Part shown: positions 35,065 to 61,198 of the stretch, piece after piece
Layout of the letters: each line of letters opens with the position of its first letter
How positions within the stretch are numbered: the stretch's first letter is position 1
Sequence record: PV357172.2
Source of the DNA: a phage
DNA: 64,000 nucleotides
Strand: one strand, 5' to 3'
Notes under the pieces: generated by a model
Seen by the model: only the letters and a program-made list of their open reading frames with translations
What the model was told of the DNA's origin: nothing
Databases searched by the model: none
Translations under genes and position numbers: made by a program

Positions 35065-35066
35065 TT

Positions 35067-37986: not shown

Positions 37987-38238
37987 ATGAAAAACGTTAT
38001 TACCGCGCCTAAAATTGGTCAATCCGTTTTCATCCCTTTCGTTACTAAAACGGATGAATTAACCGGAAAAGCCGAGCGCATCAAAGGCGCAGCGCTTATG
38101 CCATTTGATACAATCGACGCGGTATACGCTGAAACGGAACGAAGTAACAACGGAAAAACTATTTACAGCGTTCGGGTTAAATCCGGCGACGTTGTAAAGG
38201 TTGTTCAACGCAACGAAAAATGGGAAGCTGTATTGTAA
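37987..38238 (+). CDS. hypothetical pre-early-region protein (83 aa)
   Basis: AGGAG SD; followed by hairpin ATCCCCC...GGGGGAT. Confidence 0.5.
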   Translation: MKNVITAPKIGQSVFIPFVTKTDELTGKAERIKGAALMPFDTIDAVYAETERSNNGKTIYSVRVKSGDVVKVVQRNEKWEAVL

Positions 38239-38336
38239 TTTAGTGTTAACTTTATATCCCCCAGTAGTTCGGGGGATATAACGATTAACATTATGTTAAT
38301 CTAATCCCTTAAATTAAACTAATAGGAGTTTTTACC

Positions 38337-38744
38337 ATGACTAACGCAAAAACCGCAAAATTCGCATGGAATGAAGAAAACACTCAGAAAGCTGTTACCA
38401 TGTACCAGCAGTTAATCAACGAAAACGGTTTAGATTTTGCAAATAGCGACGGCCTGAAAGAGATTGCAAAAGCAGTAGGCGCGGCTTCTCCTGTGTCTGT
38501 TCGCTCAAAATTGACCAGTGCAAAAGCCTATCAAAAAAGCGATAAGCCGCGTAAAGTTGGCGGCGGTAGTTCAATCCGTAAAGCGCATTATGTGCGAGTA
38601 ATTGCAAAACACGCTATCGATTCCGGCATTATCAAAGACGCCGATGATCTGGCAAGCCTTGAAAGTGCTAAACTGGAAACGCTGGACGCAGTAGCGCAAC
38701 TGTTAGGCGTTGCCGATGAAGTAAAACAGGCCGCAGGTGAATAA
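38337..38744 (+). CDS. hypothetical pre-early-region protein (135 aa)
   Basis: AGGAG SD; followed by hairpin GCCCCCT...AGGGGGC. Confidence 0.5.
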   Translation: MTNAKTAKFAWNEENTQKAVTMYQQLINENGLDFANSDGLKEIAKAVGAASPVSVRSKLTSAKAYQKSDKPRKVGGGSSIRKAHYVRVIAKHAIDSGIIKDADDLASLESAKLETLDAVAQLLGVADEVKQAAGE

Positions 38745-38832
38745 TTATATACCTTGCCCCCTTTAGTGAGGGGGCAATAATATAACTGTTTAGCGATAGT
38801 TGTTATCTTCCCTTAAATCAGGAGTTTTAAAA

Positions 38833-39030
38833 ATGATTTTCTTTCCTACTGAGTCATTAATTTTAGGCTTGTTTATTATGGCGGCCTCGTTATTGTTCGC
38901 TTATTTTCAAAATGATTTAGATTCATATTATTTTAAACGTAAATCTAAATTAGCAAAACGTTTAGGTCTGCTTTGTTTTATCGCTGCCGTTGCTTGTGGT
39001 GTTAGTTCTAGCCTAGTGCCTTTAAATTAA
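38833..39030 (+). CDS. small membrane protein
   Basis: ATG 38833 after AGGAG; hydrophobic. Confidence 0.45.
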   Translation: MIFFPTESLILGLFIMAASLLFAYFQNDLDSYYFKRKSKLAKRLGLLCFIAAVACGVSSSLVPLN

Positions 39031-39120
39031 TGTTGCAAATTATAACGCCTATTGTTCGAGGCGTTATATTTGGCAATATTGCCGTTATTAACCTAATCCC
39101 TTTAATGGAGCTTTATTACT

Positions 39121-40791
39121 ATGATTATTTCCGCAGAAAAACAAACCGTTATCCTGAAAATGGCCGCTGACTTTAATTTCTATGGTAAACGTCTGCGCGC
39201 TACTAAACTGGAGGTCTGCGACGATATATCAAAAGCAGTCTACGATACAACGAAACATTCCACCGCCATTTGTGATTGGCTGGAAGCAAACAAACCAGCG
39301 AAACCAAAAGCGGCAAAAGTAGCAAAAGCCATTAAAAACGATGAGCGCCCCGAAGCGGCGGGGATTGTTTCTAGCACGGTTGAACAGTGGGAAGTAAAAC
39401 AGGGTAAACGCTTTATTATTACGTCGATTCAGAATAATACTTTCCCGCATAAAAACTTTTTAGCCTCGCTTGAACAATTTGCTAAATATATCGGCGCTGA
39501 TTTGCTTGTTTCTAAGTATATTTATAATAAAAACGGTTTTCAAAATGGCGAGGGCGCGGATGGAATAAAGTATGATTCCGCGTTCGATAAATATATTTGC
39601 AGCAAAAACGTGTTTTTACATAACCGCCGTTTTGCTTTCATGGCTGAAATTAATGTTTTGCCAACCGCAGATTATCCGCTTTCTGGATTCGCAGAAACTG
39701 CTACCGCGCTCAATATTGAAGGGCTGGCAATTGGTCACGCTAAAATTACCGCCGAAAGCGTGCCAGCTTTAAAAGGTGAAGTAGTGCGCCGTATGTATTC
39801 AACCGGAACGGCAACGCTCAAAAACTACATTCAGCAGAAAGCAGGACAAAAGGCCGAGGCGCTGCATAACTTCGGTGCGCTTATTGTTGAGTTCGATGAT
39901 GATGGGGAATTTTTTGTTCGCCAGCTTGAAACAATGGACGAAAGCGGGGTGTTTTATGATCTGAATGTTTGCGCTACTCCTGCCGGATGCTATGAAACAT
40001 CGGGGCATGTTTTAGGCTTGCAGTATGGCGATATTCACGCCGAAAAATTAGATGAGGAGTGCGCCGCCGCATCTTGGGGGCATGGTGATACCTATGGGCT
40101 AGTAGATATTCTTAAACCAAAATATCAGTTTGTGCATGACGTGCATGATTTTACATCGCGCAATCATCATAACCGCGCATCCGGTGTATTCCTAGCGAAA
40201 CAGTATGCCGCCGGACGTGATAAAGTTCTGGATGATCTTATCGATACCGGTCGCGTGCTGGAATCAATGGAACGTGATTTTAGTCAAACAATCATTGTTG
40301 AATCGAATCACGATTTGGCGCTATCCCGTTGGCTTGATGATCGTAATGCTAACATTAAGGACGATCCCGCCAACGCCGAACTATATCACCGCCTGAATGC
40401 TGCGATTTACGGAGCTATTGCAGAAAAAGACGACACCTTCAACGTGCTAGATTATGCGCTGCGCAAGGTTGCAGGTTGTGAATTTAACGCCATTTTCCTA
40501 ACGACTGACCAATCTTTCAAGATTGCAGGTATTGAATGCGGCGTACACGGTCACAATGGCATTAACGGGAGCCGTGGCAATCCGAAACAATTTAAGAAAT
40601 TGGGCAAATTAAACACCGGACACACTCATACCGCCAGCATTTACGGCGGCGTTTATACCGCTGGCGTGGCTGGTAGTCTGGATATGGGTTACAACGTTGG
40701 CGCGTCAAGCTGGACACAAACGCATTTAATTACCTATGCAAACGGTCAACGCACTTTGATTGACTTTAAAAACGGTAAATTCTTTGCGTAA
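39121..40791 (+). CDS. A1: A1-like pre-early protein, Mre11/SbcD-type metallophosphatase nuclease (556 aa)
   Basis: Metallophosphatase motifs GDIHA, ESNHD, GHNG and GHTHT; length equals T5 A1 as I recall it. Confidence 0.65.
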   Translation: MIISAEKQTVILKMAADFNFYGKRLRATKLEVCDDISKAVYDTTKHSTAICDWLEANKPAKPKAAKVAKAIKNDERPEAAGIVSSTVEQWEVKQGKRFIITSIQNNTFPHKNFLASLEQFAKYIGADLLVSKYIYNKNGFQNGEGADGIKYDSAFDKYICSKNVFLHNRRFAFMAEINVLPTADYPLSGFAETATALNIEGLAIGHAKITAESVPALKGEVVRRMYSTGTATLKNYIQQKAGQKAEALHNFGALIVEFDDDGEFFVRQLETMDESGVFYDLNVCATPAGCYETSGHVLGLQYGDIHAEKLDEECAAASWGHGDTYGLVDILKPKYQFVHDVHDFTSRNHHNRASGVFLAKQYAAGRDKVLDDLIDTGRVLESMERDFSQTIIVESNHDLALSRWLDDRNANIKDDPANAELYHRLNAAIYGAIAEKDDTFNVLDYALRKVAGCEFNAIFLTTDQSFKIAGIECGVHGHNGINGSRGNPKQFKKLGKLNTGHTHTASIYGGVYTAGVAGSLDMGYNVGASSWTQTHLITYANGQRTLIDFKNGKFFA

Positions 40792-40847
40792 TTAAATTAT
40801 TCCCCTAGCGGCTTGAAATATAGCCGCTATTATAGGAGCTAAATTAA

Positions 40848-41105
40848 ATGAAAGTTACATTACCCAAAACATTGGACGAAAAAGTATTTATTTCACCGGA
40901 TGAAATGGAATCTGATAAAGTTTACAGCTTCGGGCCTATCCTAGCCGCCAAAACTAATACGGATGGTATTATTTCCGTCGATTCCCGTGATAACGATATT
41001 GTTCCTTTTGATGATGATGGCGCTTTTTATGAGTGGCTAAGCGATAATAATTTACCCGTAAACGGTGAATTAACGCCATACCAGATGCAGATTATTATCA
41101 AATAA
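40848..41105 (+). CDS. hypothetical protein (85 aa)
   Basis: Track ORF with AGGAG SD. Confidence 0.5.
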   Translation: MKVTLPKTLDEKVFISPDEMESDKVYSFGPILAAKTNTDGIISVDSRDNDIVPFDDDGAFYEWLSDNNLPVNGELTPYQMQIIIK

Positions 41106-41143
41106 ATTAAATCCATTATTAAACTAATTGGAGTTTTATAAAT

Positions 41144-41536
41144 ATGAAAAAGCAAAATATTCCCTTCGATCGCGCTCAGTCCTCAATTGTTCTGGTTTAT
41201 TCCAACGGCGAACGTTACCACGTCGAGGCTGGACACGTTATTGATGACCTATTAGATTTCAATGACGCTTTGCAGGTTACTACCTTTGCATATACGCAGG
41301 GCAAACTAACCAGCCATATTAAAGCAAAAGGCGTTTATGTTGACACGGTGAAACAAGAAACGATTATCATCGACGCCGTAAAATCCGGCCTAGCCTTTGC
41401 AGTTGTCGCGCCTTGCCTCGCTTGCCTTGATGATCAATTGATTAGTGCAAAGGTCTACACATGTGCGGGGATTCGTTCTAGCGTATCCGGTGAGGATGTT
41501 AGTTTTATCGCTGATGCGTTGGCTTATGGTCTTTAA
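41144..41536 (+). CDS. A2 candidate (130 aa)
   Basis: Size and position next to the A1-like gene only. Confidence 0.35.
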   Translation: MKKQNIPFDRAQSSIVLVYSNGERYHVEAGHVIDDLLDFNDALQVTTFAYTQGKLTSHIKAKGVYVDTVKQETIIIDAVKSGLAFAVVAPCLACLDDQLISAKVYTCAGIRSSVSGEDVSFIADALAYGL

Positions 41537-41616
41537 TAGTTGATTTATTATTGCCCGCTTATAAATAGCGGGTAATGCTGAATTAATCTAATCCCTTAAA
41601 TGGAGAACGTAACAAA

Positions 41617-42351
41617 ATGAATCAAGTTAAAACGAATATTACCCGTAATTTCCCGCATATTTCCCGCGTCATGATTTGGGATCTTGATGGCACTATCGTT
41701 AATTCATTCCATCGTGTCGCGCCTTGCTTTGATAGCGACGGGAATTTAAATTTAAATAAGTATAAAAATGAGGCTTGCAAACATGATTTAATAATGCAAG
41801 ATACTTTATTGCCTTTGGTGGAATATATGCGCCAATGCATGAATGACGCAAATACTTTAAACATTATTTGCACCGCTCGACTGATGAGCAAATCAGACTA
41901 TTATTATTTGCGTAAACAAGGATTGCGCGGGCGTGGTGATAGTAATATCCGTGTATTTTCCCGCGATACACTGCATAAATATTTTGAGGCTGATAAGGTT
42001 AGCGAAATATACCACAGCAAAGACGCAGTTTATAAATCGTATTATTTTGAGCTATTCAAACAACTATATCCGAACGCTGATTTTACAATGATTGATGATC
42101 ATAAAGGTGTATTATCAGCGGCAGCGTCATACGGATTTAAAACGCTGGACGCGCAAGCCGTTAATGATATTCTATCAATCGGCGTGGCATTGATAGGCGG
42201 AACCTTTATTGATGAATCTCTCGATGATGATAATGATTATCAGTTCCTAGCGGACCGATTGAAATTATGTTGGGAAAGTATGACCGAGGAAGAACGCGCA
42301 GAATATAGTTGCAGCCCGCAACAATATATTGAGAAATTAAAAGTTGCGTAA
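41617..42351 (+). CDS. dmp: HAD-superfamily phosphatase, Dmp-like 5'-deoxyribonucleotidase (244 aa)
   Basis: HAD motif I DLDGT and motif IV IDDH; same length as T5 Dmp as I recall it. Confidence 0.6.
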   Translation: MNQVKTNITRNFPHISRVMIWDLDGTIVNSFHRVAPCFDSDGNLNLNKYKNEACKHDLIMQDTLLPLVEYMRQCMNDANTLNIICTARLMSKSDYYYLRKQGLRGRGDSNIRVFSRDTLHKYFEADKVSEIYHSKDAVYKSYYFELFKQLYPNADFTMIDDHKGVLSAAASYGFKTLDAQAVNDILSIGVALIGGTFIDESLDDDNDYQFLADRLKLCWESMTEEERAEYSCSPQQYIEKLKVA

Positions 42352-42513
42352 TAATTAAAGTTGAAATAGTCACGGTGTGTAATGATAACATGCCGTGACT
42401 ATTAGCTTGCTAAGTACCGGGCGGTAATGAGACTCATTCTCATCTGGGGGGCCACTGCACCCACCCACGCGTACGTAATCCAAAGAATTTGGCAAAAGTC
42501 ATTTTAGTGCTAA

Positions 42514-43053
42514 TTAACTGTTTAATTGGGCAACGTCTGGTATACTTCCTTTGAACATCTCCTGTATTGCAAAGTCACCATGAAATGTCCTTCTTAGTAA
42601 ATTTGCATAATTTACGGCATCTTCTAATCCGCTATAGGGAAAGTACTTAGTAGTACCCCTTATCAGCCCCTGTTTATCATGTAATCTTACCATCCACTTC
42701 TGAAGTTCTTTATGCCATGTAACATTTAGATAGCCTGATGATGCTCTTGAGATTCTGCCATTATGATTATTCTCTGTAATTGAAGCCTCTCTTAAATTTG
42801 ACCATCTATTATTTAGTTTATTCCTATCTATGTGGTCTACACATTCCTCTGGCCATCTATTCTCCATAATAACAAAAGCTACTTGATGTGCATAAGCTTT
42901 AAACCCTCGATACTTAAGCTGCCTATATCCCCTATTTAAAGTACCTGCTTCTTTACCCTTACGATTGCCTCTTTTCCAGGTAAAAACTCCGGTTTCGGGA
43001 TCATAAGCAAATACTTCTTGTATTTCCTGTATGTTTAAATTATTCTTCATCAC
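42514..43053 (-). CDS. HNH homing endonuclease
   Basis: HQVAFVIMENRWPEECVDHIDRNKLNNRWSNLRE HNH motif. Confidence 0.75.
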   Translation of the reverse strand: MMKNNLNIQEIQEVFAYDPETGVFTWKRGNRKGKEAGTLNRGYRQLKYRGFKAYAHQVAFVIMENRWPEECVDHIDRNKLNNRWSNLREASITENNHNGRISRASSGYLNVTWHKELQKWMVRLHDKQGLIRGTTKYFPYSGLEDAVNYANLLRRTFHGDFAIQEMFKGSIPDVAQLNS

Positions 43054-43285
43054 TCACCTTTGCCCGAAATCTCTTCCGCGACGCCCGAGATCCATCCGAC
43101 CACTCCCGCTCAAACTCCGCACGTTTCTCGTCAAACTTCCGCTCCCTTTCCGCAATCTTCCGCTCCCTTTCCGCAATCTCCCGCGATACTTCCGCAGTAT
43201 ACTTACGATGCTTGTTAATAGCCGCAGTCATTCCGAAAACTCCCGCAAGTACCCCGATAATAAAAGCAATTATAATACTAAACAT
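43040..43285 (-). CDS. small membrane protein with charged repeat tail (81 aa)
   Basis: N-terminal TM helix then IAERERK repeated, encoded by a 21-bp tandem DNA repeat (about 43140-43185). Confidence 0.5.
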   Translation of the reverse strand: MFSIIIAFIIGVLAGVFGMTAAINKHRKYTAEVSREIAERERKIAERERKFDEKRAEFEREWSDGSRASRKRFRAKVSDEE

Positions 43286-43472
43286 CTAATTCCCTCTCAA
43301 TTTGCAGAATACGGGTACTATCACAACGTTGGAGTTCTACTAATTTTTCTAGAGCAAATTGTTGTTGTTTTACCTGAGCTTCTAGAGTTTTTAGGCGAAC
43401 ATACGCGTTATAAGAAACAATGAAAGTTGCCCAGACTAGTATTACTATTAGTGTAGCTACTACTTCCATCAT
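43278..43472 (-). CDS. TM plus coiled-coil small protein (64 aa), paralog family
   Basis: ATGATG start overlaps the upstream stop. Confidence 0.5.
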   Translation of the reverse strand: MMEVVATLIVILVWATFIVSYNAYVRLKTLEAQVKQQQFALEKLVELQRCDSTRILQIERELDV

Positions 43473-43576
43473 TTACGTTTCTCCGTTAGTAAAGTTTCAA
43501 TTCTAGCTAAGTGATTATCTAAAATACATTGCCCAATAATCATAATTCCCAGTAATGAAATAATTACCCATTCCAT
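43469..43576 (-). CDS. TM plus coiled-coil mini-protein (35 aa), paralog
   Basis: MEWVII...ARIETLLTEKRK, same N- and C-terminal signatures as the 61-aa neighbour; below track cutoff. Confidence 0.4.
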   Translation of the reverse strand: MEWVIISLLGIMIIGQCILDNHLARIETLLTEKRK

Positions 43577-43761
43577 TATTTACGCTCCTCTAATAAAGTT
43601 TCAATTCTAGATAACCTATTACTCAACTGCATTAATTTAACCTCTACTTGGGTTACAGAGGTATCTATTACACGTAAGCCTACAAAGAGAAGTATCAGTA
43701 GGATGAATATGCCAATAATTACCCATTCCATTAAATCCACCCCGCCATAGCTGCTAACCAA
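43576..43761 (-). CDS. TM plus coiled-coil small protein (61 aa), paralog
   Basis: ...MEWVIIGIFILLILL...RIETLLEERK. Confidence 0.5.
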   Translation of the reverse strand: MVSSYGGVDLMEWVIIGIFILLILLFVGLRVIDTSVTQVEVKLMQLSNRLSRIETLLEERK

Positions 43762-43922
43762 AAACCTACGAAGATTAGGAATAATACAAAACCAAATCCG
43801 TAAATATTAATCCACGCTTCGTACACTTCTCCGCGTCTGTTCTTTCTTTTGTTTGACATATCTTTCCTGCTCCTATAAATATAGTATTTGGAATATTTTA
43901 TAATTTGCGCATAGCCAACCAT
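43731..43922 (-). CDS. small protein with C-terminal TM helix (63 aa)
   Basis: Basic N-terminus, hydrophobic C-terminus; first gene of the minus-strand array. Confidence 0.45.
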   Translation of the reverse strand: MVGYAQIIKYSKYYIYRSRKDMSNKRKNRRGEVYEAWINIYGFGFVLFLIFVGFWLAAMAGWI

Positions 43923-44035
43923 GCTCGTGATTTCCTAGAAGGGCTTTTCACTTTCTTGCATAGTGTTTTCTGCTAGTACACCATCCAAGAAATAAAAAAT
44001 TTAGTTTACTTGGATGTCTTTTTGCTTTATACTAA

Positions 44036-44302
44036 TTACAAGTAATTAGATTGCTCTAGTTTAAATTTACAATCACCATATTTAAGGTCAAACTGACTGA
44101 GATCCCACCATCCAAACTTAGTACGGAGCTGTACTACTGGAAAGCGATCTCCCTTAATACGAACTTTTTGAACCTTGAGACCGTAATGTTCTTCTCCCTC
44201 ACCACCAAAAGATTTTACAAATCCAGTACAAAATGGTTTGGGAGCAGGTGCACAACCAGATAACATAACTGCGGCAACTAGTGTAATCACAAACTTTTTC
44301 AT
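44036..44302 (-). CDS. llp: Llp-like lipoprotein (receptor-blocking candidate)
   Basis: Signal peptide with lipobox LSGC; divergent from the RBP gene as llp is from oad in T5. Confidence 0.6.
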   Translation of the reverse strand: MKKFVITLVAAVMLSGCAPAPKPFCTGFVKSFGGEGEEHYGLKVQKVRIKGDRFPVVQLRTKFGWWDLSQFDLKYGDCKFKLEQSNYL

Positions 44303-46155: not shown

Positions 46156-46638
46156 ATGGCAAATGATGTATTAGTACCAGATCTTATGTCCCCTGAAGGG
46201 ATGGATGTAATTGAAGCATATTTACAGTGTGGGAGTGATGTGCCTTCTGCCGCACGTAGTCTTGGAATGTCCGAAATTGCTTTTAGAGATATTATGAATC
46301 GTAGTGAAGTTAAGAACTACTTAAATGATATTTTTATGGAGAGTGGTTTCCGTAACAGAGATCGTTTATTTGGTGTTCTGGATGAAGTTATCAAGCGTAA
46401 ACTAGAGGAACTAGAAGAAACTGGCATGGGTTCTGACCAAGATATTATGGATATTCTCTGGAAAGCACATAAAATGAAAATGGAAGAAATGAAAATGATG
46501 GTAGAACTGGAGAAAGTTAAGGCAGCAGCCCGTACTCCAGCTAACCAGACCAACATCCAGAATAATATTATTGCTGGAGCTGGGGATCAAAACTACATGG
46601 ACTTAATTACTTCCCTAGCTACTGGAGGTAAGAAGTAA
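46156..46638 (+). CDS. terminase small subunit (160 aa)
   Basis: Directly upstream of and overlapping the large terminase gene. Confidence 0.55.
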
Positions 46639-47954
46639 TGGAAGTATCAAGACCTTACGTTAATACAGTAGATGTTATTGATTTCGGAATAGATAAACGT
46701 TTCTTTCGTCTACCTGTTTCGGGAATACTAGCACAAGAAGGTATTACACCTAATGGTCCTCAAATAGCGATTATTAATGCTCTAGAGGATCCTAGACATC
46801 GTTTTGTAACGGCGTGTGTATCACGCCGTGTAGGTAAATCCTTCATCGCATATACTCTTGGGTTCCTAAAATTGCTGGAACCTAATGTGAAGGTGTTAGT
46901 AGTTGCTCCTAACTATTCACTGGCCAACATCGGATGGTCTCAGATTCGTGGTCTTATTAAAAAATATGGCCTACAAACTGAACGTGAGAACGCTAAAGAT
47001 AAGGAAATTGAGTTAGCTAATGGTTCTCTGTTTAAACTAGCTTCCGCTGCTCAGGCTGACTCCGCAGTTGGACGTTCATATGATTTTATCATCTTTGACG
47101 AGGCGGCAATTTCCGATGTGGGTGGTGATGCCTTCAGGGTTCAGCTGCGTCCTACCCTAGATAAACCTAATTCTAAGGCTCTATTTATTTCCACCCCTCG
47201 TGGAGGTAACTGGTTTAAAGAGTTTTACGCCTACGGATTTGATGATACGTTGCCTAACTGGGTATCTATTCATGGTACATATCGTGATAACCCTCGTGCT
47301 GACCTGAATGATATAGAAGAAGCACGTCGTACGGTTAGTAAAAACTACTTCCGCCAGGAATATGAAGCTGACTTCTCTGTATTTGAAGGTCAGATTTTTG
47401 ATACTTTCAATGCTATTGACCATGTTAAAGACCTTAAGGGTATGCGTCATTTCTTTAAAGATGATGAAGCATTCGAAACGTTGCTTGGTATCGACGTTGG
47501 TTATCGTGATCCTACAGCAGTTCTTACTATTAAGTATCATTACGATACGGATACTTACTATGTATTAGAAGAGTACCAGCAGGCGGAGAAAACTACAGCT
47601 CAGCATGCTGCTTACATTCAGCACTGTATAGATCGTTATAAAGTTGATCGTATTTTTGTTGACTCCGCGGCAGCTCAGTTCCGTCAAGACTTAGCTTATG
47701 AGCATGAAATTGCATCAGCTCCAGCTAAAAAATCTGTCCTAGATGGCCTAGCATGCCTGCAAGCACTGTTCCAACAGGGTAAGATTATTGTAGATGCCTC
47801 ATGCTCCTCCTTAATTCATGCACTGCAGAACTATAAGTGGGATTTCCAAGAAGGTGAAGAAAAATTATCCCGTGAAAAACCACGTCATGATGCTAACTCT
47901 CACCTTTGTGATGCGCTGCGCTACGGAATTTACTCTATTTCCCGTGGTAAATAA
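46638..47954 (+). CDS. terminase large subunit (438 aa)
   Basis: Walker A-like VSRRVGKS and Walker B FIIFDEAA, with a C-terminal nuclease-type domain. Confidence 0.8.
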   Translation: MEVSRPYVNTVDVIDFGIDKRFFRLPVSGILAQEGITPNGPQIAIINALEDPRHRFVTACVSRRVGKSFIAYTLGFLKLLEPNVKVLVVAPNYSLANIGWSQIRGLIKKYGLQTERENAKDKEIELANGSLFKLASAAQADSAVGRSYDFIIFDEAAISDVGGDAFRVQLRPTLDKPNSKALFISTPRGGNWFKEFYAYGFDDTLPNWVSIHGTYRDNPRADLNDIEEARRTVSKNYFRQEYEADFSVFEGQIFDTFNAIDHVKDLKGMRHFFKDDEAFETLLGIDVGYRDPTAVLTIKYHYDTDTYYVLEEYQQAEKTTAQHAAYIQHCIDRYKVDRIFVDSAAAQFRQDLAYEHEIASAPAKKSVLDGLACLQALFQQGKIIVDASCSSLIHALQNYKWDFQEGEEKLSREKPRHDANSHLCDALRYGIYSISRGK

Positions 47955-48125: not shown

Positions 48126-48764
48126 ATGGGTCGACAAAAGCTAACAATAAAAGATATAAATACTAGATTAGCTGATCGTGGAATCCAAATTGTCGGTGAA
48201 TATGTAAACCAGCGTACAAAAACAGTATTTAGATGCCAGAGAGCACACGTTTGGGAAGCAACACCACATTCTGTACTTCATATGAGGAGAGGTTGTCCAC
48301 ACTGCTCCAATAATACAATATCGTTAGATGAAGTTAGTAACAGAATATCTAATATAGGGTATACTCTGTTAAGCAGCTATACTAATGCTAAAACAAAACT
48401 ACATCTACGTTGCAATAATGGGCATGACTGTTTCATTACCCTAGATGGATTGACTCAAGGTAAAAGATGTCCTTATTGTTCTCTTAAATGGGAAAATGGC
48501 GGATTCCTCTATATCATGTCCTCCTGCAGAGGTACTAAAGTAGGCATAAGCTTATACCCTGAGAAGCGGCTGAACGAGGTTAAAAGAGAATCTGGATTTT
48601 CTGACATATACTTGTTCACCGTGTATTATCTGCCGGATAGAGAGACTGCTTTAGATTTAGAGAAGGAAGTTCACAGAAAATATTATAATAAAAACTGTGG
48701 GTTTTCTAATTTTACAGGAAGTACGGAATTTTTTAATGTTGCTCCTGAAGATGCTTTCAAATAG
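48126..48764 (+). CDS. T5orf172/GIY-YIG-like homing endonuclease with zinc-ribbon N-terminus
   Basis: CPHC and CPYC pairs then GGFLYIMSS...KVGIS...KRLNEV...TEFFNV. Confidence 0.6.
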   Translation: MGRQKLTIKDINTRLADRGIQIVGEYVNQRTKTVFRCQRAHVWEATPHSVLHMRRGCPHCSNNTISLDEVSNRISNIGYTLLSSYTNAKTKLHLRCNNGHDCFITLDGLTQGKRCPYCSLKWENGGFLYIMSSCRGTKVGISLYPEKRLNEVKRESGFSDIYLFTVYYLPDRETALDLEKEVHRKYYNKNCGFSNFTGSTEFFNVAPEDAFK

Positions 48765-48990
48765 GGAAGCATTCTACAAGAAATATGAGCATGAGTTAGT
48801 TAGGGACGTGGTAACATTGTGCCAGCACCATCACCAATTATTACATAAGGTTTACACAAAAGAACCTCCTTTATTTTCTGCTAATAAGCAAAAAGTGTGG
48901 GTTCAAAAGCAGAAAGACAAATTACAGAATCCTCAAGAAAAGACACAAGTCAAGACTGAAACAAAATCAGGATTCGCAAGGTTCTTATAA
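48697..48990 (+). CDS. hypothetical small ORF; possible frame-shifted C-terminal remnant of the endonuclease
   Basis: Overlaps the endonuclease 3' end in another frame; contains LCQHHHQLLH. Confidence 0.3.
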   Translation: MGFLILQEVRNFLMLLLKMLSNREAFYKKYEHELVRDVVTLCQHHHQLLHKVYTKEPPLFSANKQKVWVQKQKDKLQNPQEKTQVKTETKSGFARFL

Positions 48991-50090
48991 TGGGTTTTAA
49001 AAGCTGGATTACTGAAAAGCTAAATCCGGGTCAACGTATTATAAGAGACATGGAACCAGTTAGTCATCGCACTAACCGTAAGCCTTTTACCACTGGACAA
49101 GCCTACAGTAAAATTGAGATTCTCAATAGAACTGCTAATATGGTTATAGATAGTGCGGCGGAGTGTTCTTATACTACTCTCTTAAATGTACGACCTAATC
49201 CATTCATGGATATAAGCACATTCCGTAGACTTGTAGTCACTGACCTACTTTTTGAAGGTTGTGCATACATCTATTGGGATGGCACATCGCTTTACCATGT
49301 CCCTGCTGCACTGATGCAAGTAGAGGCAGATGCCAATAAGTTTATCAAAAAATTTATATTTAATAACCAGATAGACTATCGCGTAGATGAGATTATCTTT
49401 ATAAAAGATAACAGTTACGTGTGTGGCACAAATTCTCAAATTTCTGGACAATCTCGCGTTGCTACTGTTATTGACTCTCTTGAGAAGCGTTCTAAGATGC
49501 TTAACTTTAAAGAGAAATTCCTCGATAACGGAACTGTGATTGGTCTTATTCTTGAGACGGATGAAATCCTGAACAAGAAATTGCGTGAGCGTAAACAAGA
49601 AGAATTACAACTAGATTATAATCCTAGTACTGGTCAGTCCTCTGTCCTGATAGACTTTAAGGAAGACATCGAAGGATTTAATAAATCCATCTGTCTAGCC
49701 TTTGGTGTTCCGCAAGTGCTACTTGATGGCGGTAATAATGCGAACATTCGACCAAACATCGAATTGTTCTACTATATGACTATCATTCCTATGCTGAACA
49801 AGCTGACTAGTTCTCTTACTTTCTTTTTTGGTTATAAGATTACTCCTAATACTAAGGAAGTAGCTGCATTAACACCAGATAAAGAAGCTGAGGCTAAACA
49901 TTTAACCTCATTGGTTAATAATGGTATTATGACTGGTAACGAGGCTCGTTTAGAGCTGAACCTTGAACCTTTAGATGATGAGCAGATGAATAAGATTCGT
50001 ATTCCTGCTAACGTTGCTGGTTCTGCAACAGGTGTATCTGGTCAAGAAGGTGGTAGACCTCAAGGTTCCACCGAGGGAGATAAAGAATGA
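48990..50090 (+). CDS. portal protein (366 aa)
   Basis: Position between terminase and prohead protease. Confidence 0.65.
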   Translation: MGFKSWITEKLNPGQRIIRDMEPVSHRTNRKPFTTGQAYSKIEILNRTANMVIDSAAECSYTTLLNVRPNPFMDISTFRRLVVTDLLFEGCAYIYWDGTSLYHVPAALMQVEADANKFIKKFIFNNQIDYRVDEIIFIKDNSYVCGTNSQISGQSRVATVIDSLEKRSKMLNFKEKFLDNGTVIGLILETDEILNKKLRERKQEELQLDYNPSTGQSSVLIDFKEDIEGFNKSICLAFGVPQVLLDGGNNANIRPNIELFYYMTIIPMLNKLTSSLTFFFGYKITPNTKEVAALTPDKEAEAKHLTSLVNNGIMTGNEARLELNLEPLDDEQMNKIRIPANVAGSATGVSGQEGGRPQGSTEGDKE

Positions 50091-50581
50091 TTGATTATAA
50101 TGGTCTAAAGACCATTTTTGGTGAAAAACTGCCAGAATCTCATATCTTCTTTGCTACGGTTGCTGCGCATAAATATGTTCCTAGCTATGCTTTTCTGCGT
50201 AGAGAACTAGGGCTTTCATCTGCGCATACTAACCGTAAAGTATGGAAGAAATTTGTAGAGGCTTATGGTGAAGCAGTTCCTCCGGCCCCACCGGCCCCAC
50301 CATTAACTCTTTCTAAAGATTTAACTGCTAGCATGTCAGTTGAAGAGGGAGCAGCATTAACACTTTCTGTTACTGCAACTGGTGGTACTGGTCCATATAC
50401 TTATGCATGGACTAAAGATGGTTCTCCTATTCCGGATGCTTCAGGAGCTACCTATACTAAACCTACAGCAGCAGCTGAGGATGCCGGCTCTTATAAAGTA
50501 ACTGTAACAGATAGTAAGCAAGTAAGTAAGGATTCTACTGCATGTGCTGTGACAGTTAATCCTACTGTTCCTGGAGGCTAA
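50087..50581 (+). CDS. capsid decoration protein with C-terminal Ig-like domain (164 aa)
   Basis: PPAPPAPP linker then Ig-like beta-rich domain; same length as T5 pb10 as I recall it. Confidence 0.55.
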   Translation: MIDYNGLKTIFGEKLPESHIFFATVAAHKYVPSYAFLRRELGLSSAHTNRKVWKKFVEAYGEAVPPAPPAPPLTLSKDLTASMSVEEGAALTLSVTATGGTGPYTYAWTKDGSPIPDASGATYTKPTAAAEDAGSYKVTVTDSKQVSKDSTACAVTVNPTVPGG

Positions 50582-50584
50582 TAA

Positions 50585-51217
50585 ATGACACAAGCTGCTA
50601 TTGACTATAACAAGTTAAAATCAGCACCCGTTCATTTAGATGCTTATATTAAATCTATTGATAGCGAATCCAAAGAGGGCGTTGTAAAAATCCGTGGATT
50701 CGCTAATACAATTAGTAAAGATCGCGCTGGTGATGTAATTCCTGCTTCTGCGTGGAAAACATCTAATGCACTTGCTAACTATATGAAAAACCCGATTATT
50801 CTTTTCGGACACGATCATCGTCGTCCAATCGGCAAGTGTATTGATCTTAACCCTACTGAAATGGGTCTCGAAATCGAATGCGAGATCTATGAAAGTTCTG
50901 ACCCGGCTATCTTTTCTCTAATTAAAAACGGTGTACTGAAAACTTTTAGTATCGGATTCCGCTGCCTAGATGCAGAGTGGGATGAAGCTACTGATATATT
51001 TATTATTAAAGATTTAGAACTATACGAAGTTTCGGTAGTTTCTGTACCTTGTAATCAGGACTCAACGTTCAATCTCGCTAAGAGTATGAATGGTCATGAT
51101 TATACTGAATGGCGTAAATCTTTTACTGCAATAAGTTCTAAAGCTGTCCCAGCTCAAGAACGTAATCTTTCTGAACTAGAAAAACTTGCGATAGCTTTAG
51201 GCTACGTTAAAGAATAA
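50585..51217 (+). CDS. prohead protease (210 aa)
   Basis: Immediately upstream of the capsid gene; length matches T5 pb11 as I recall it. Confidence 0.6.
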   Translation: MTQAAIDYNKLKSAPVHLDAYIKSIDSESKEGVVKIRGFANTISKDRAGDVIPASAWKTSNALANYMKNPIILFGHDHRRPIGKCIDLNPTEMGLEIECEIYESSDPAIFSLIKNGVLKTFSIGFRCLDAEWDEATDIFIIKDLELYEVSVVSVPCNQDSTFNLAKSMNGHDYTEWRKSFTAISSKAVPAQERNLSELEKLAIALGYVKE

Positions 51218-51234: not shown

Positions 51235-52468
51235 ATGACTATTGATATTAATAAGCTGAAAGAAGAACTTGGTCTGGGTGATCTGGCTAAATCTCTGGAA
51301 GGTCTGACCGCTGCTCAGAAAGCTCAGGAAGCTGAACGTATGCGTAAAGAGCAGGAAGAAAAAGAACTGGCTCGTATGAATGACTTGGTTTCTAAAGCAG
51401 TTGGCGAAGATCGTCAGAAACTGGAACAAGCTCTGGAACTGGTTAAGTCCCTGGATGAAAAATCTAAGAAGAGCGCAGAACTGTTTGCACAGACTGTAGA
51501 AAAGCAGCAGGAAACTATTGTTGGTCTCCAGGACGAAATCAAATCTCTGCTGGCAGCTCGTGAAGGGCGTTCCTTCGTCGGTGATAGTGTGGCTAAAGCA
51601 CTGTACGGTACTCAAGAAAACTTTGAAGACGAAGTGGAGAAACTGGTTCTTCTGTCCTACGTGATGGAAAAAGGTGTATTTGATACCGAACATGGTCAGA
51701 GACACTTGAAAGCTGTAAACCAGTCTTCTTCTGTAGAAGTTTCTAGTGAAAGCTATGAAACTATTTTCTCCCAGCGTATCATCCGTGACTGAGGTTAAAG
51801 GTGCTCTGACTGAAATCCACTTCAGTACTTACAAACTGGCTGCTAAGTCCTTCATTACTGATGAAACTGAAGAAGATGCAATCTTCTCCCTGCTGCCGCT
51901 GCTGCGTAAACGTCTGATTGAAGCACACGCTGTTTCTATCGAAGAAGCGTTTATGACTGGTGATGGTACTGGTAAACCTAAAGGTCTATTGACTCTTGCT
52001 AGCGAAGATGGTGCTAAAGTTACTACTGAAGCTAAAGCTGATGGTTCTGTTCTGGTAACTGCTAAGACTATCTCTAAACTGCGTCGTAAACTGGGCCGTC
52101 ATGGTTTGAAACTGTCCAAACTGGTACTGATTGTATCTATGGATGCTTACTACGATCTGCTGGAAGATGAAGAATGGCAGGATGTTGCTCAAGTTGGTAA
52201 TGATGCTGTTAAACTGCAGGGTCAGGTTGGTCGTATTTATGGTCTGCCGGTTGTAGTTTCTGAATACTTCCCAGCTAAAGCGGTTGATAAAGAGTTCGCA
52301 GTTATTGTTTATAAAGATAACTTCGTAATGCCACGTCAGCGTGCTGTTACTGTTGAACGTGAGCGTCAAGCTGGTAAACAGCGTGATGCATACTACGTTA
52401 CTCAGCGTGTTAACCTGCAACGTTACTTTAGTAATGGCGTTGTATCTGGTGCTTACGCTGCATCTTAA
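51235..52468 (+). CDS. major capsid protein precursor, reading frame interrupted by an apparent +1 frameshift
   Basis: Frame 1 (51235-51792) encodes a coiled-coil scaffold-like domain; frame 2 (from 51737) encodes the HK97-fold body with GDGTGKPKGLL; the frames overlap only at 51737-51789. Confidence 0.7.
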
Positions 52469-57538: not shown

Positions 57539-60500
57539 ATGACTGATAAGCTAATACGAGAATTACTAATAGACGTTAAACAGAAGGGGGCAACCCGTAC
57601 TGCAAAGTCTATTGAAAACGTATCTGATGCATTAGAGAACGCTGCTGCTGCTTCTGAACTAACAAATGAACAGTTAGGTAAAATGCCCAAAACTCTATAC
57701 TCCATTGAGAGGGCAGCAGATAGAGCAGCGAAAAGTCTTACTAAAATGCAAGCTAGCAGAGGTATGCTTAGTATTACTAAATCTATTAATGATATAGGAG
57801 CTAAGTTAGATGATCTCGCTATTACAATGATTGAAGTAGCAGATAAATTAGAAATCGGATTTGATGGAGTTTCTAGATCTGTTAAAACAATGGGCAATGA
57901 TGTTGCAGCTGCAACAGAGAAAGTTCAAGATAGGCTGTATGATACTAATAGAGCCTTAGGTGGTACAGCTAGAGGTTTTAATGATACTACTGGTGCCGCT
58001 GGTAGAGCTTCTAGAGCTATCGGTAATACCTCTGGCTCAGCACGCGGTGCAACTCGTGATTTCGCGGCAATGGCTAAGATAGGGGGTGGTTTACCTATCC
58101 TGTATGCTGCAATTGCATCTAATATATTTGTTCTTCAGTCCGCTTTTGAGGGCCTAAAAGTAGGTGATCAATTAAACAGACTGGAACATTTTGGCACTAT
58201 CGTTGGGACTATAACGGGTACACCAGTACAGACGTTAGCTCTGGCACTACAAAACGCTACTAACGGTGCTGTATCCTTTGAAGAAGCTATGAGACAAGCG
58301 TCTTCTGCTTCAGCTTATGGATTTGATAGTAAACAATTAGAACAGTTCGGACTAGTAGCCCGTCGTGCTGCTGCTGTTCTTGGTGTTGACATGACCGACG
58401 CACTTAACCGTGTAATTAAAGGCGTATCTAAGCAAGAAATAGAACTTCTAGACGAACTTGGTGTTACTATTCGCCTTAACGATGCGTATGCAAATTATGT
58501 TAAACAGCTAAATGCTACCAGTACAGGCATTAAATATACTGTAGATAGCCTGACTACCTACCAGAGACAACAAGCATATGCAAATGAAGTTATAGCAGAA
58601 TCTACTAGACGTTTCGGATACCTAGATGATGCTCTTAAGTCAACTTCTTGGGAGCTATTTGCTGCTAATGCTAACTCTGCCCTAAGAAGCCTACAACAAA
58701 GCGCAGCAACATACTTAACCCCTGTTGTAGACACCATCAATGCTTTCTTATATCAAACTAAATCTTCTCAGATGAGGATTTCCGCAATGGCACGCAGTGC
58801 CTCTGCTAAAACCACTCCTACTGAAAATGTTACGGCTCTCATAGAAAACGCTGTAGGTGCACAAGAAGATCTAGATACTTACCTTAAAGAAAGTGATGCT
58901 CGTGTTAAGAAAGCTCAAGAGATTAAACAGCAGTTAGATGATCTCAAGGCAAAACAAGCTGTTACTGCTCCAGTAGCTAACGCACTTACTGCTGTGGGCA
59001 TTGGAGGCGATGAAAGTAATAAATTAGTAGTACAACTTACTAATGAACTGGCTCGTCAAAACCAAGAAATAGCAGAACGCGCTAAAACCGAAAAAGTTCT
59101 CAAACAAGCAGTGGAAGATACTGGGCAAGCCTTACTGCGTAATAGTAATCTAGCTAAGCAATTAGGAGCCAATATGCAGTATGCTGCCACTGCTATTCCT
59201 GGAGAGACCGGGGTATTTAAGATTGATCCTAATAATCTTAAAGCGGCTGCAGAGGTACAGAAGAACTATGACCAGCTAAAGAAAAGCTCTAGTGATACTG
59301 CAAATAATATAAAAATGGCAGCTACTAACATTACCACTGCCAAAAAAGCATCAGGTGACTTAGTTAGCATTATAAAAGCAGTAGGAGATACTGCTAAGGT
59401 AACAGGGCAAAATACAGATACTCTAGTTAAAAATCTGAATCTAGGCTTTGAAAATCTAGATCAAATGAAGGCTGCGCAGAAAGGTCTATCAGAATATGTA
59501 ACTGCTATGGATAAGAATGAGCAGAATGCACTGGAAGTAGCTAAACGTAAAGACGAGGTTTATAACCAGACTAAAGACAAAGCTAAAGCGGAGGCAGCAG
59601 CTAGAGAGGTGCTACTACGTCAGCAACAGGAACAGCTCACAGCAGCAAAAGCACTACTGGCTGTTAATCCAAACGATCCAGAGGCTCTAAAGCAGGTAGC
59701 TAAGATAGAAACAGAGATTCTTAATACTAAAGCTCAGGGATTTGAGAACGCTAAGAAAACTAAAGATCTGACAGATAAAATTCTTGGTGTAGATCGTGAG
59801 ATAGCTCTCCTGAATGACCGCACTATGACGAGTACTCAGTATCGTCTAGCACAATTAAGGCTAGAGCTACAATTAGAGCAGGAAAAAACGGAATTATATT
59901 CTAAACAAGCGGATGGCCAAGCTAAAGCAGAACAGTCTAGACGTGCCCAAGCACAAATAAGTAGAGAACTGTGGGAAGCAGAGAAACAAGCTACTGCCTC
60001 GCATGTGTCAGCTCTCATGGATGCCTTAGAAGTTAACCAAACTCAGAGAAATGTCACTGGTCAATCCCAGATTCTTACTGAAAGGTTATCCATTCTGCAA
60101 CAACAGCTGGAGTTGTCTAAAGGTAATACTGAAGAAGAAATTAAATATCGTAATGAGATTTATAAAACTTCAGCAGCCTTAGAACAGCTTAAAAAGCAAA
60201 GAGAGAGTCAGATGCAGCAACAGGTAGGATCTTCATTAGGTGCTGTGTACACTCCTACAACTGGTCTATCTGGGGCAGATAAAGATTTTGCTGATATGCA
60301 GAATAAGATGGCTTCTTATGACCAGGCTATTTCTAAGCTGTCTGAGTTAAATTCCGAAGCAACAGCTGTAGGTCAAAGCCTTGGTAATTTAACTAATGCT
60401 ATGATTCATTTCTCACGGGGATCTCTAGATACTACGTCTATGATTGCGGCAGGTATGCAAGCTGTATCTTCCGTAATTCAGTATAGTACTAGCCAGCAGG

Positions 60501-61198
60501 TAAGTGCTATTGATGCAGCTATTGCAGCAGAGCAAAAACGTGATGGTAAATCCGAGGAGTCTAAAGCTAAACTCAAGAAACTGGAAGCGGAAAAGGTTAA
60601 GATCCAGCAGGATGCAGCTAAGAAGCAAATCATTATTCAGACGGCAGTAGCAGTAATGCAAGCGGCAACAGCTGTACCATACCCGTTCTCTATTCCTTTG
60701 ATGGTGGCGGCAGGTTTGGCAGGTGCGTTGTCTCTTGCTCAAGCATCTTCTGCATCGAGTATGTCAAGTATTGCTGATTCTGGAGCGGATACAACAAGTT
60801 ATTTAACCTTAGGAGAGCGTCAAAAGAATATAGATGTGTCCATGTCTGCTAATGCAGGTGAACTATCTTATATCCGAGGCGATAAAGGAATAGGCGGTGC
60901 TAACTCTTTCGTTCCTCGTGCTGAGGGTGGTAATATGTACCCAGGGGTTAGTTACCAAATGGGTGAACATGGTACAGAAGTAGTTACCCCTATGGTTCCT
61001 ATGAAAGCTACACCTAATGATGAGCTAAAAACCTCATCTAACTCAACTTCAGGAAGACCTATCATCTTGAATATTAGTGCTATGGATGCTGCAAGTTTCA
61101 GAGAGTTTGCTTCTAGTAATAGTAGTGCTCTAAGAGACGCAGTAGAATTAGCTCTGAATGAGAACGGTGCTAGTCTGAAAACATTAGGAAATTCTTAA
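57539..61198 (+). CDS. tail tape measure protein pb2-like (1219 aa)
   Basis: Very long helical ORF with a hydrophobic segment and C-terminal metallopeptidase-like region; length equals T5 pb2 as I recall it. Confidence 0.8.
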   Translation: MTDKLIRELLIDVKQKGATRTAKSIENVSDALENAAAASELTNEQLGKMPKTLYSIERAADRAAKSLTKMQASRGMLSITKSINDIGAKLDDLAITMIEVADKLEIGFDGVSRSVKTMGNDVAAATEKVQDRLYDTNRALGGTARGFNDTTGAAGRASRAIGNTSGSARGATRDFAAMAKIGGGLPILYAAIASNIFVLQSAFEGLKVGDQLNRLEHFGTIVGTITGTPVQTLALALQNATNGAVSFEEAMRQASSASAYGFDSKQLEQFGLVARRAAAVLGVDMTDALNRVIKGVSKQEIELLDELGVTIRLNDAYANYVKQLNATSTGIKYTVDSLTTYQRQQAYANEVIAESTRRFGYLDDALKSTSWELFAANANSALRSLQQSAATYLTPVVDTINAFLYQTKSSQMRISAMARSASAKTTPTENVTALIENAVGAQEDLDTYLKESDARVKKAQEIKQQLDDLKAKQAVTAPVANALTAVGIGGDESNKLVVQLTNELARQNQEIAERAKTEKVLKQAVEDTGQALLRNSNLAKQLGANMQYAATAIPGETGVFKIDPNNLKAAAEVQKNYDQLKKSSSDTANNIKMAATNITTAKKASGDLVSIIKAVGDTAKVTGQNTDTLVKNLNLGFENLDQMKAAQKGLSEYVTAMDKNEQNALEVAKRKDEVYNQTKDKAKAEAAAREVLLRQQQEQLTAAKALLAVNPNDPEALKQVAKIETEILNTKAQGFENAKKTKDLTDKILGVDREIALLNDRTMTSTQYRLAQLRLELQLEQEKTELYSKQADGQAKAEQSRRAQAQISRELWEAEKQATASHVSALMDALEVNQTQRNVTGQSQILTERLSILQQQLELSKGNTEEEIKYRNEIYKTSAALEQLKKQRESQMQQQVGSSLGAVYTPTTGLSGADKDFADMQNKMASYDQAISKLSELNSEATAVGQSLGNLTNAMIHFSRGSLDTTSMIAAGMQAVSSVIQYSTSQQVSAIDAAIAAEQKRDGKSEESKAKLKKLEAEKVKIQQDAAKKQIIIQTAVAVMQAATAVPYPFSIPLMVAAGLAGALSLAQASSASSMSSIADSGADTTSYLTLGERQKNIDVSMSANAGELSYIRGDKGIGGANSFVPRAEGGNMYPGVSYQMGEHGTEVVTPMVPMKATPNDELKTSSNSTSGRPIILNISAMDAASFREFASSNSSALRDAVELALNENGASLKTLGNS

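What the first reader, a model, noticed from the sequence alone, without database searches (positions are those of the whole stretch)
51734..51792. Major capsid gene split by a +1 frame change between scaffold-like domain and HK97-fold body
The scaffold-like N-terminal part (frame 1) ends at TGA 51790-51792, while the capsid body is in frame 2, which is open only from 51737; the GDGTG motif is in frame 2. The two frames overlap for just 18 codons, so a single-nucleotide indel in this interval, possibly in the CTATTTTCTCCC run, is the simplest explanation. Alternatives are a sequencing or assembly error, a genuine inactivating mutation, or a programmed frameshift.
Basis: seen in the sequence. 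Interest (0 to 1): 0.6.

Follow-up and report, generated by a model that had tools for sequence, protein, structure and literature searches.

The report
Capsid gene broken by 143-base gap
The major capsid gene of this T5-like phage is split because 143 bases are missing from the sequence record, and this is most likely an assembly defect rather than a single-base error, a programmed frameshift or real biology.

Summary
Frame 1 runs 51235-51792 and ends at TGA 51790-51792. Frame 2 opens after TAG 51734-51736 and carries GDGTG. The cause is not a one-base indel. Window 51737-51789 aligns without gaps to every relative. At 51789/51790 the window lacks 143 bases that about 430 T5-like genomes have. 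These are gene nt 556-698, codon 186 to the second base of codon 233 of a 458-codon gene. The loss removes the end of the N-arm, a P-domain strand and most of the E-loop.

Three more clean deletions lie within 3 kb:
- about 238 nt in the nicking-endonuclease gene
- 60 nt in the portal gene
- 57 nt in the portal gene

All other late genes are intact. The same four sites carry smaller, nested deletions in only three database records: Salmonella phages Stp1, SP1a and SP3. All three come from one Indian laboratory. SP3 is a viable phage whose draft was assembled with IVA and SEQuel.

Among the four damaged genomes dN/dS is 0-0.2 even downstream of the frameshifts, so these genes were functional throughout their divergence. 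The best reading is a recurrent assembly artefact (about 0.8). Its technical mechanism is unresolved and the window's provenance is unknown. Interest is low.

The parts
51235..51789 (+). Major capsid protein gene, codons 1-185: the cleaved N-terminal scaffold (delta) domain 1-159 plus the first 26 residues of the mature protein. Frame 1.
   Evidence: Aligns without gaps to the first 555 nt of the 1377-nt gene of relatives. Against L009 there are 17 synonymous and 1 non-synonymous codon differences.
51789..51790 (+). Deletion junction. 143 nt are missing between these two bases (gene nt 556-698, codon 186 to the second base of codon 233). Base 51790 (T) is the surviving third base of codon 233.
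   Evidence: Relatives span 1377 nt where the window has 1234.
51790..51792 (+). TGA stop that ends the frame-1 ORF. It is created by the junction: T of codon 233 plus GA of codon 234.
51791..52468 (+). Major capsid protein gene, codons 234-458 plus stop, in frame 2. Covers the end of the E-loop, the spine helix, the A domain and the GDGTG motif.
   Evidence: Pfam PF05065 Phage_capsid, E = 5.5e-19, profile positions 65-274 of 280. No stop in 225 codons. 27 synonymous and 6 non-synonymous differences to L005.
51737..51789 (+). Frame-2 read-through of frame-1 coding sequence (KFLVKAMKLFSPSVSSVT). It is open by chance and not homologous to any capsid sequence. The listed GTG 51746 start is a mechanical ORF call.
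48752..48754 (+). Second lesion. About 238 nt are missing, covering the 3' end of the T5orf172-type gene, the start codon and the first 67 codons of the T5 nicking-endonuclease gene (PF26848 in relatives).
   Evidence: Relatives have a 145-aa protein.
49175..49176 (+). Third lesion. 60 nt are missing from the portal gene, in frame, removing residues 63-82 of the wing domain, including Lys77.
   Evidence: Portal domains from PMC11313276.
49650..49652 (+). Fourth lesion. 57 nt are missing from the portal gene, in frame, removing residues about 242-260 of the clip domain.
48990..50090 (+). Portal gene as it stands: 366 aa instead of 403-405.
50585..51217 (+). Prohead protease (S78 family), intact at 210 aa, immediately upstream of the capsid gene.
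   Evidence: The identical protein is found in 534 blocks of the public collection.

Best explanation
The window is a T5-like (Tequintavirus) genome. Its major capsid gene is the usual single gene of 458 codons. In this sequence record 143 bases are missing from it. The loss joins codon 185 to the last base of codon 233, shifts the frame and creates a TGA at the junction.

The gap is one of four clean gaps within 3 kb: one in the nicking-endonuclease gene, two in the portal gene and one in the capsid gene. I infer that these gaps are defects of the assembled sequence and not of the phage. On this reading, a recurrent, site-specific artefact of one assembly workflow dropped short internal stretches, and the real phage encodes intact genes.

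Shown: the size and position of the deletion; its uniqueness among relatives; the recurrence of the same four sites in three draft records from one laboratory; and purifying selection across the broken genes.

Inferred: that the cause is technical. The exact technical mechanism is not identified.
For: 1. Size and position. The window has 1234 nt where the 30 best-matching records listed span 1377, and 435 of the 449 matching records cover at least 80% of the query. The alignment shows one 143-nt gap at 51789/51790 and none in 51737-51789.
2. Relatives are intact. 20 of 20 contigs from NCBI, ENA and Logan have a capsid protein of 457-464 aa, a portal of 403-405 aa and a nicking endonuclease of 131-145 aa or no such gene.
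3. Clustering. Four lesions lie at 48753, 49175, 49651 and 51789. Across 43.7-64 kb there is no other uncompensated lesion, and all other late genes have full length.
4. Recurrence. Only three other records carry lesions at the same four sites: Stp1 KY775453, SP1a MF774689 and SP3 MG387042 (also NC_048001). All are from India and chicken gut. Their deletions are nested inside the window's at all four sites: 37-38 nt against 238, 58-59 against 60, 56 against 57, and 70-93 against 143. End points differ by 1-2 nt at the portal sites.
5. Viability. SP3 forms plaques, has normal heads in electron micrographs, and is a 'draft' assembled with IVA and SEQuel (PMC6812015). A phage with a truncated capsid protein and portal could not do this.
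6. Selection. Pairwise dN/dS among the four lesion-bearing genomes is 0-0.2, with dS 0.03-0.44, in the portal and capsid segments, including parts downstream of the frameshifts. The genes were therefore under selection throughout the divergence of these genomes. The lesions are not inherited. They are either four sets of very recent independent events at identical sites or not real.
7. Backbones differ. The window is only 90-98% identical to the three records.
8. The deleted segments occur nowhere else in the window.
Against: - No reads are available, so the artefact is inferred and not observed.
- The window's provenance is unknown. I could not show that it came from the same laboratory or assembler.
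- I found no property of the four sites that explains a technical failure. The tests covered hairpins, sequence variability, similarity to Illumina adapters, a shared motif and homology to E. coli genomes, and none gave a lead.
- Two of the four deletions in the window (the portal ones) are in frame, which a real and tolerated deletion would also be.
- The junctions are not clear mosaic break points, except weakly at the capsid junction (94th percentile). Simple end-to-end joining of contigs from a mixed sample is therefore not demonstrated.
Confidence: 0.8

Rival explanations
1. The deletions are real. The sequenced DNA came from a defective T5-like genome, or from a dominant defective sub-population carried by intact helper genomes. 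The four sites would be hot spots of illegitimate recombination that are hit repeatedly in this group of phages.
For: - The junctions are clean and free of N.
- The two portal deletions in the window are in frame.
- The same sites recur on four different backbones, as a site-specific biological process would produce.
- One of the hit genes is the phage's own nicking endonuclease.
Against: - The capsid deletion shifts the frame in all four genomes (143, 70, 71 and about 93 nt), and the portal deletions shift the frame in the other three.
- The capsid protein and portal are indispensable for a virulent phage, yet SP3 is viable.
- The deletions total about 500 nt of roughly 110 kb, so they give no replication advantage.
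- Microhomology at the junctions is 0-3 nt, and the obvious 5-nt CTAGA repeat at the second portal site was not used.
- No such junction exists in IMG/VR apart from the SP3 record itself, or in JGI metagenome contigs or GTDB genome contigs.
- dN/dS is at most 0.2 in the broken genes.
Confidence: 0.12
2. The gaps arose when separate contigs or scaffold pieces from a mixed T5-like sample were ordered against a reference and joined without spacers, losing short pieces between them. This is a specific sub-type of the artefact reading.
For: - One unaligned base sits at two junctions (48753 and 51790).
- The nearest relatives change across the capsid junction. To the left they are PNJ1902, S.Ent 1-35-3 and BB1 at about 97.5%. 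To the right they are NBEco001, EH1 and FFH_1 at about 96%.
- The change-of-relatives statistic at 51789 is at the 94th percentile.
Against: - The other three junctions are unremarkable on that statistic (23rd-52nd percentile).
- T5-like phages are naturally mosaic, and stronger switches occur where there is no gap.
- This reading does not explain by itself why four different genomes break at the same sites, because the missing segments are not unusually variable.
Confidence: 0.05
3. A single-nucleotide insertion or deletion (sequencing error or point mutation) within 51737-51792, for example in the CTATTTTCTCCC run, splits an otherwise complete gene.
For: The two frames overlap by only 18 codons.
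Against: - The interval aligns base for base with 13 relatives.
- The gene is 143 nt short.
- Residues 186-233 are absent in every frame.
Confidence: 0.01
4. A programmed +1 ribosomal frameshift, or a genuine two-gene arrangement of scaffold protein and capsid protein.
For: None beyond the frame overlap.
Against: - Every homologue is a single ORF.
- A shift cannot supply the 48 missing residues.
- The break is 26 residues inside the mature protein, not at the cleavage site.
- By inspection there is no Shine-Dalgarno-like sequence ahead of GTG 51746 or ATG 51755.
- The frame-2 peptide upstream of the junction has no homologue.
Confidence: 0.01

Closest known systems
Bacteriophage T5 major capsid protein pb8 (HK97 fold with a cleaved N-terminal scaffold domain; PDB 5TJT, 6OKB, 8ZVI)
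   Same: Residues 1-185 and 234-458 of the window's gene are collinear with pb8. The same protease gene lies upstream, and the same gene order runs from terminase to tail tube.
   Different: Residues 186-233 are absent and the two halves are in different frames in this record. These residues are the end of the N-arm, P-domain strand 192-205 and E-loop 206-233.
Draft GenBank records of Salmonella phages Stp1 (KY775453), SP1a (MF774689) and SP3 (MG387042 / RefSeq NC_048001)
   Same: Lesions at the same four sites in the nicking-endonuclease, portal (two sites) and capsid genes, and nowhere else in the terminase-to-tail-tube stretch held for these three records (about 7-10 kb).
   Different: Their deletions are smaller and nested within the window's. 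Their portal deletions shift the frame. Their backbones differ from the window by 2-10%. Their origin is documented: one laboratory, and for SP3 the assemblers IVA and SEQuel. The window's origin is not.
Programmed frameshifts in phage structural genes (for example T7 capsid 10A/10B and lambda tail chaperone G/GT; from general knowledge)
   Same: Two overlapping frames within a structural gene.
   Different: In those cases the two-frame layout and a slippery site are conserved in relatives and no sequence is missing. Here relatives have a single frame and 143 nt are absent.

Membership tests
T5 pb8-type major capsid protein (PF05065, HK97 fold with N-terminal delta domain) | Sequence homology to the capsid family profile | tested here: met
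   The C-terminal part hits PF05065 at E = 5.5e-19, but only profile positions 65-274 of 280. A full-length relative matches the T5 capsid chains 8ZVI and 5TJT.
T5 pb8-type major capsid protein (PF05065, HK97 fold with N-terminal delta domain) | One continuous ORF of about 458 codons | tested here: not met
   185 codons in frame 1 and 225 codons in frame 2, with 143 nt missing.
T5 pb8-type major capsid protein (PF05065, HK97 fold with N-terminal delta domain) | Complete N-arm, first P-domain strand and E-loop (residues 164-244) | tested here: not met
   Residues 186-233 are absent in all frames. Domain limits are from PMC11313276.
T5 pb8-type major capsid protein (PF05065, HK97 fold with N-terminal delta domain) | S78 prohead protease gene immediately upstream | tested here: met
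   50585-51217, 210 aa, identical to the protein in many T5-like contigs (PF04586).
Programmed ribosomal frameshift | Two-frame architecture conserved in homologues | tested here: not met
   Single ORF in 20 of 20 contigs and in annotated relatives.
Programmed ribosomal frameshift | The shifted product is collinear with the full-length homologue | tested here: not met
   48 residues would still be missing.
Assembly or consensus artefact | The lesion is unique to this record and to records of one workflow, and absent from independent assemblies | tested here: inconclusive
   This holds for the three known carriers, which come from one laboratory. The lesions are absent from about 430 other records and 20 contigs. 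The workflow behind the window itself is unknown.
Assembly or consensus artefact | The broken gene shows no decay and carries the signature of selection | tested here: met
   dN/dS is 0-0.2 among the lesion-bearing genomes, and there are no extra stops.
Assembly or consensus artefact | Reads contradict the assembled junction | not testable with these tools
   No reads are available. The window's proteins are not on record in the public assembly index.

The most novel reading that the evidence does not exclude
The four gaps are genuine, recurrent, site-specific deletions. They would arise independently in different T5-like phages at fixed hot spots in the nicking-endonuclease, portal and capsid genes. 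This would mark a previously unknown site-specific breakage and rejoining process, or a class of defective 'cheater' genomes carried along with intact phages in lysates.
Probability: 0.05. Interest if true: 0.6.

Novelty: not a real feature. Interest (0 to 1): 0.1.

Why it matters
The biological value is small: this is an ordinary T5-type capsid gene.

The practical value is data quality. The same four gaps sit in a RefSeq species exemplar (NC_048001, Tequintavirus SP3) and two other GenBank records. There they yield truncated 'major capsid protein' and 'portal protein' entries that can spread into protein databases and phylogenies. SP3's published tree is built on its capsid gene.

A site-specific, reproducible assembly failure would also be worth reporting to users of that workflow. 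If the gaps were real against expectation, recurrent deletions at fixed sites in essential genes would be a notable finding.

Tried and rejected
- **Single-base indel in the T/C run:** rejected, because the alignment there has no gaps.
- **Deleted segments moved elsewhere in the window:** no matches longer than 15 nt.
- **Hairpins or inverted repeats causing polymerase jumps:** DNA folds of three of the four sites (the two portal sites and the capsid site) have z-scores of -0.45 to +0.48.
- **Missing segments dropped from a mixed-strain consensus because they are hypervariable:** the portal segments are among the most conserved (8th and 57th percentile), and the capsid segment is at the 82nd percentile.
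- **Junctions as recombination or contig break points:** only the capsid junction is mildly unusual.
- **Reads lost through host filtering:** no similarity of the 3.8-kb region to 5,426 E. coli genomes. Salmonella and chicken genomes were not tested.
- **A motif shared by the four deleted cores, such as a nick site:** no shared 6-mer in all four. The T5 record AY587007 annotates no nick sites in this region. A literature search for a T5 nick consensus gave nothing usable.
- **Finding the window's own source or an independent assembly of it:** the exact junction is absent from IMG/VR, JGI metagenome contigs and GTDB genome contigs. The window-specific proteins are not on record.

Full report
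**What the window is.** The region is the head-gene block of a T5-like siphovirus (Tequintavirus). The order is small and large terminase (46156-47954), a T5orf172-type gene, the nicking-endonuclease gene, portal (48990-50090), decoration protein (50087-50581), S78 prohead protease (50585-51217), major capsid gene, head completion and tail genes. This order matches annotated relatives such as PNJ1902 and mar004NP2. Nucleotide identity to the nearest database genomes is 91-94% over 24-25 kb.

**Check of the observation.** The frames are as described:
- ORF 51235-51792 (185 aa) ends at TGA 51790-51792.
- Frame 2 has TAG at 51734-51736 and is open from 51737 to the stop at 52466-52468.
- Frame 2 contains MTGDGTGKPKG.

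Two details are inexact. In T5 the cleaved scaffold domain ends at residue 159 or 160 (solved mature chains begin at 160; PMC11313276). The break after residue 185 is therefore inside the mature protein and not at the domain boundary. In addition, nothing is wrong within the 18-codon overlap itself.

**What actually happened to the gene.** The window's capsid region is 1234 nt long. The 30 best-matching records listed span 1377 nt, each in two aligned pieces. Of the 449 matching records, 435 cover at least 80% of the query.

Alignments to 13 relatives show that 51235-51789 matches gene nt 1-555 without a gap. Then 143 nt are absent, and the alignment resumes at 51790.

Codon bookkeeping gives the following. 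The deletion runs from the first base of codon 186 to the second base of codon 233. Base 51790 (T) is the third base of codon 233 (GAT or AAT in PNJ1902 and SP1a). With the GA of codon 234 it forms the TGA that ends the frame-1 ORF. Codons 234-458 follow in frame 2 (51791-52465).

The missing residues 186-233 are LQKELVVGALFEELPMSSKILTMLVEPDAGKATWV...TTTG(D/E/N). According to the T5 cryo-EM model they form the end of the N-arm (164-191), P-domain strand 192-205 and most of the E-loop (206-244). Pfam sees the capsid family only from profile position 65 onward.

A single-base indel is therefore refuted. A ribosomal frameshift could not restore the protein.

**The lesion is not alone.** Comparison of 43.7-64 kb with mar004NP2 shows three further clean gaps close by and none elsewhere:
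- About 238 nt are missing at 48753. This removes the end of the T5orf172-type gene and the first 67 codons of the nicking endonuclease (PF26848 in relatives, 145 aa).
- 60 nt are missing at 49175/49176 (portal residues 63-82, wing domain, including the DNA-contacting Lys77).
- 57 nt are missing at about 49651 (portal residues about 242-260, clip domain).

The portal ORF stays open but is 366 aa long instead of 403-405. Every other late gene has the length seen in relatives. In 20 of 20 contigs from NCBI, ENA and Logan that share an identical neighbouring protein, the capsid protein is 457-464 aa, the portal is 403-405 aa, and the nicking endonuclease is 145 aa (131 aa in one contig, absent in another).

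**The same four sites in three other records.** Degenerate searches for the two portal junctions in IMG/VR hit a single contig, which is Salmonella phage SP3 (MG387042 = NC_048001). Phage Stp1 (KY775453) matches SP3 across the whole block in one piece. SP1a (MF774689) had already appeared with a split portal and a split capsid gene.

All three records are from India and chicken intestinal contents. Two are titled 'contig.00003' and the third 'partial genome'. Their gap sizes, set against the window's, are as follows:

| Site | Stp1, SP1a, SP3 | Window |
|---|---|---|
| Nicking endonuclease | 37-38 nt | about 238 nt |
| Portal, first site | 58-59 nt | 60 nt |
| Portal, second site | 56 nt | 57 nt |
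| Capsid | 70, 71 and about 93 nt | 143 nt |

At each site their deletion lies inside the window's. End points differ by 1-2 nt at the portal sites. The right end of the capsid gap is shared by the three records but not by the window. The four genomes have different backbones: the window is 90-98% identical to the three, depending on the segment, and Stp1 has a divergent type of capsid N-terminus. Four gaps falling by chance on the same four short targets is not credible, so the cause is shared.

**Real or artefact.** Three lines point to an artefact.
1. The SP3 paper describes a plaque-forming phage with normal icosahedral heads that was used in biocontrol tests. Its 'draft' genome came from Illumina reads assembled with IVA and corrected with SEQuel (PMC6812015). 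A virulent phage cannot form heads with a frameshifted capsid gene lacking its E-loop and a frameshifted portal gene. From memory, 'contig.0000N' is IVA's naming style, which would tie Stp1 and SP1a to the same workflow.
2. Pairwise Nei-Gojobori estimates among the four lesion-bearing genomes give dN/dS of 0-0.08 in the portal segments, 0.04-0.16 in the capsid N-part and 0.13-0.20 in the capsid C-part, with dS up to 0.44. These figures include stretches that would be out of frame or untranslated if the lesions were real. There are no extra stops in the 225 codons downstream of the junction. The genes were therefore functional throughout the time these genomes diverged. The lesions cannot descend from a common ancestor. 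They would have to be sixteen very recent independent events at four fixed sites.
3. The lesions are found nowhere else: not in about 430 GenBank relatives, not in 20 inspected contigs, and not as exact junctions in JGI metagenome contigs or GTDB genome contigs.

I therefore read the split capsid gene as a defect of the sequence record (confidence about 0.8). What remains uncertain is whether the window shares the provenance of the three records, which I could not establish, and how the artefact arises.

**Attempts to find the technical mechanism.** All of these were negative:
- The deleted segments at the three sites folded (two portal, one capsid) form no unusual hairpins.
- They are not more variable than their surroundings; the portal ones are highly conserved.
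- They are not duplicated elsewhere.
- They have no similarity to E. coli genomes that could have caused read filtering.
- They contain no adapter-like words beyond background.
- They share no motif.
- Junction microhomology is 0-3 nt, and an available 5-nt CTAGA repeat at the second portal site was not used.
- Nearest relatives do change across the capsid junction. The change-of-relatives statistic is at the 94th percentile there but unremarkable at the other three junctions. Joining of contigs from a mixed sample is therefore possible but not shown.

**Rivals.** Genuine recurrent deletions (defective genomes carried by helpers, or hot spots of breakage) keep about 0.12. They would explain the site specificity and the two in-frame portal deletions. 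They conflict with the viability of SP3, with the frameshifts in all four capsid genes, with the lack of any selective gain from losing about 500 nt, and with the selection signature. The single-base indel and the programmed frameshift are each refuted by the alignments (about 0.01 each).

**Comparison with known things, and verdict.** The gene is an ordinary member of the T5 pb8 capsid family in every respect except the missing 143 nt. The nearest precedent for the anomaly is the set of three draft records with the same gaps. It is not a new biological feature. Interest is low (0.1). The useful outcome is a warning that a RefSeq exemplar and two GenBank records, and presumably the source of this window, carry truncated capsid, portal and nicking-endonuclease genes at identical places.

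Noticed in passing
window 49175/49176 and about 49651 (portal gene 48990-50090): Two clean in-frame gaps of 60 and 57 nt shorten the portal to 366 aa. They remove residues 63-82 (wing domain, including the DNA-contacting Lys77) and about 242-260 (clip domain). These are the same sites as in Stp1, SP1a and SP3, where the gaps shift the frame.
   Followed up: yes
window 48126-48990, junction at 48753: About 238 nt are missing. This fuses the truncated T5orf172-type gene (212 aa instead of 224) to the last 78 codons of the T5 nicking-endonuclease gene. The endonuclease's start and N-terminal Cys/His motif region are gone. A 97-aa GTG ORF listed here is an artefact of the fusion.
   Followed up: yes
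L017 (SP3, MG387042 / NC_048001), L016 (Stp1, KY775453), L002 (SP1a, MF774689): One RefSeq species exemplar and two GenBank drafts carry truncated or split capsid, portal and nicking-endonuclease genes at the same four sites. Their deposited protein entries for these genes are fragments.
   Followed up: yes
L017 6862-7515 (SP3): SP3 has an extra stretch of about 650 nt with a 190-aa ORF between the capsid gene and the head-completion gene. This stretch is absent from the window and from the other relatives examined. It is probably a mobile gene insertion.
   Followed up: no
window 51789/51790 flanks: Nearest relatives switch across the capsid junction. To the left they are PNJ1902, BB1 and S.Ent 1-35-3 (about 97.5%). 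To the right they are NBEco001, EH1 and FFH_1 (about 96%). This could be natural mosaicism or a join of different templates.
   Followed up: partly
window 58688-59771 (inside the 1219-aa tape-measure gene 57539-61198): About 1.1 kb has no BLASTN match to mar004NP2, although both flanks are 91-93% identical. This is a divergent central segment of the tape-measure or pore-forming tail protein.
   Followed up: no
window 19329-19336, 23983-23990 and other breaks in 1-43 kb: Whole-gene presence/absence differences from mar004NP2. For example, the window lacks the HNH endonuclease F-TflVI gene and a 126-aa ORF. The tRNA region is heavily mosaic. This looks like ordinary T5-group variation, unlike the four intragenic gaps.
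   Followed up: partly
window about 34000-44300: The pre-early genes (A2 38337-38744, A1 39121-40791, dmp 41617-42351) lie between early genes and llp/pb5. The long terminal repeat is therefore present once and the assembly runs through it, as a collapsed repeat or circularly permuted contig. The mar004NP2 record has the same layout.
   Followed up: no
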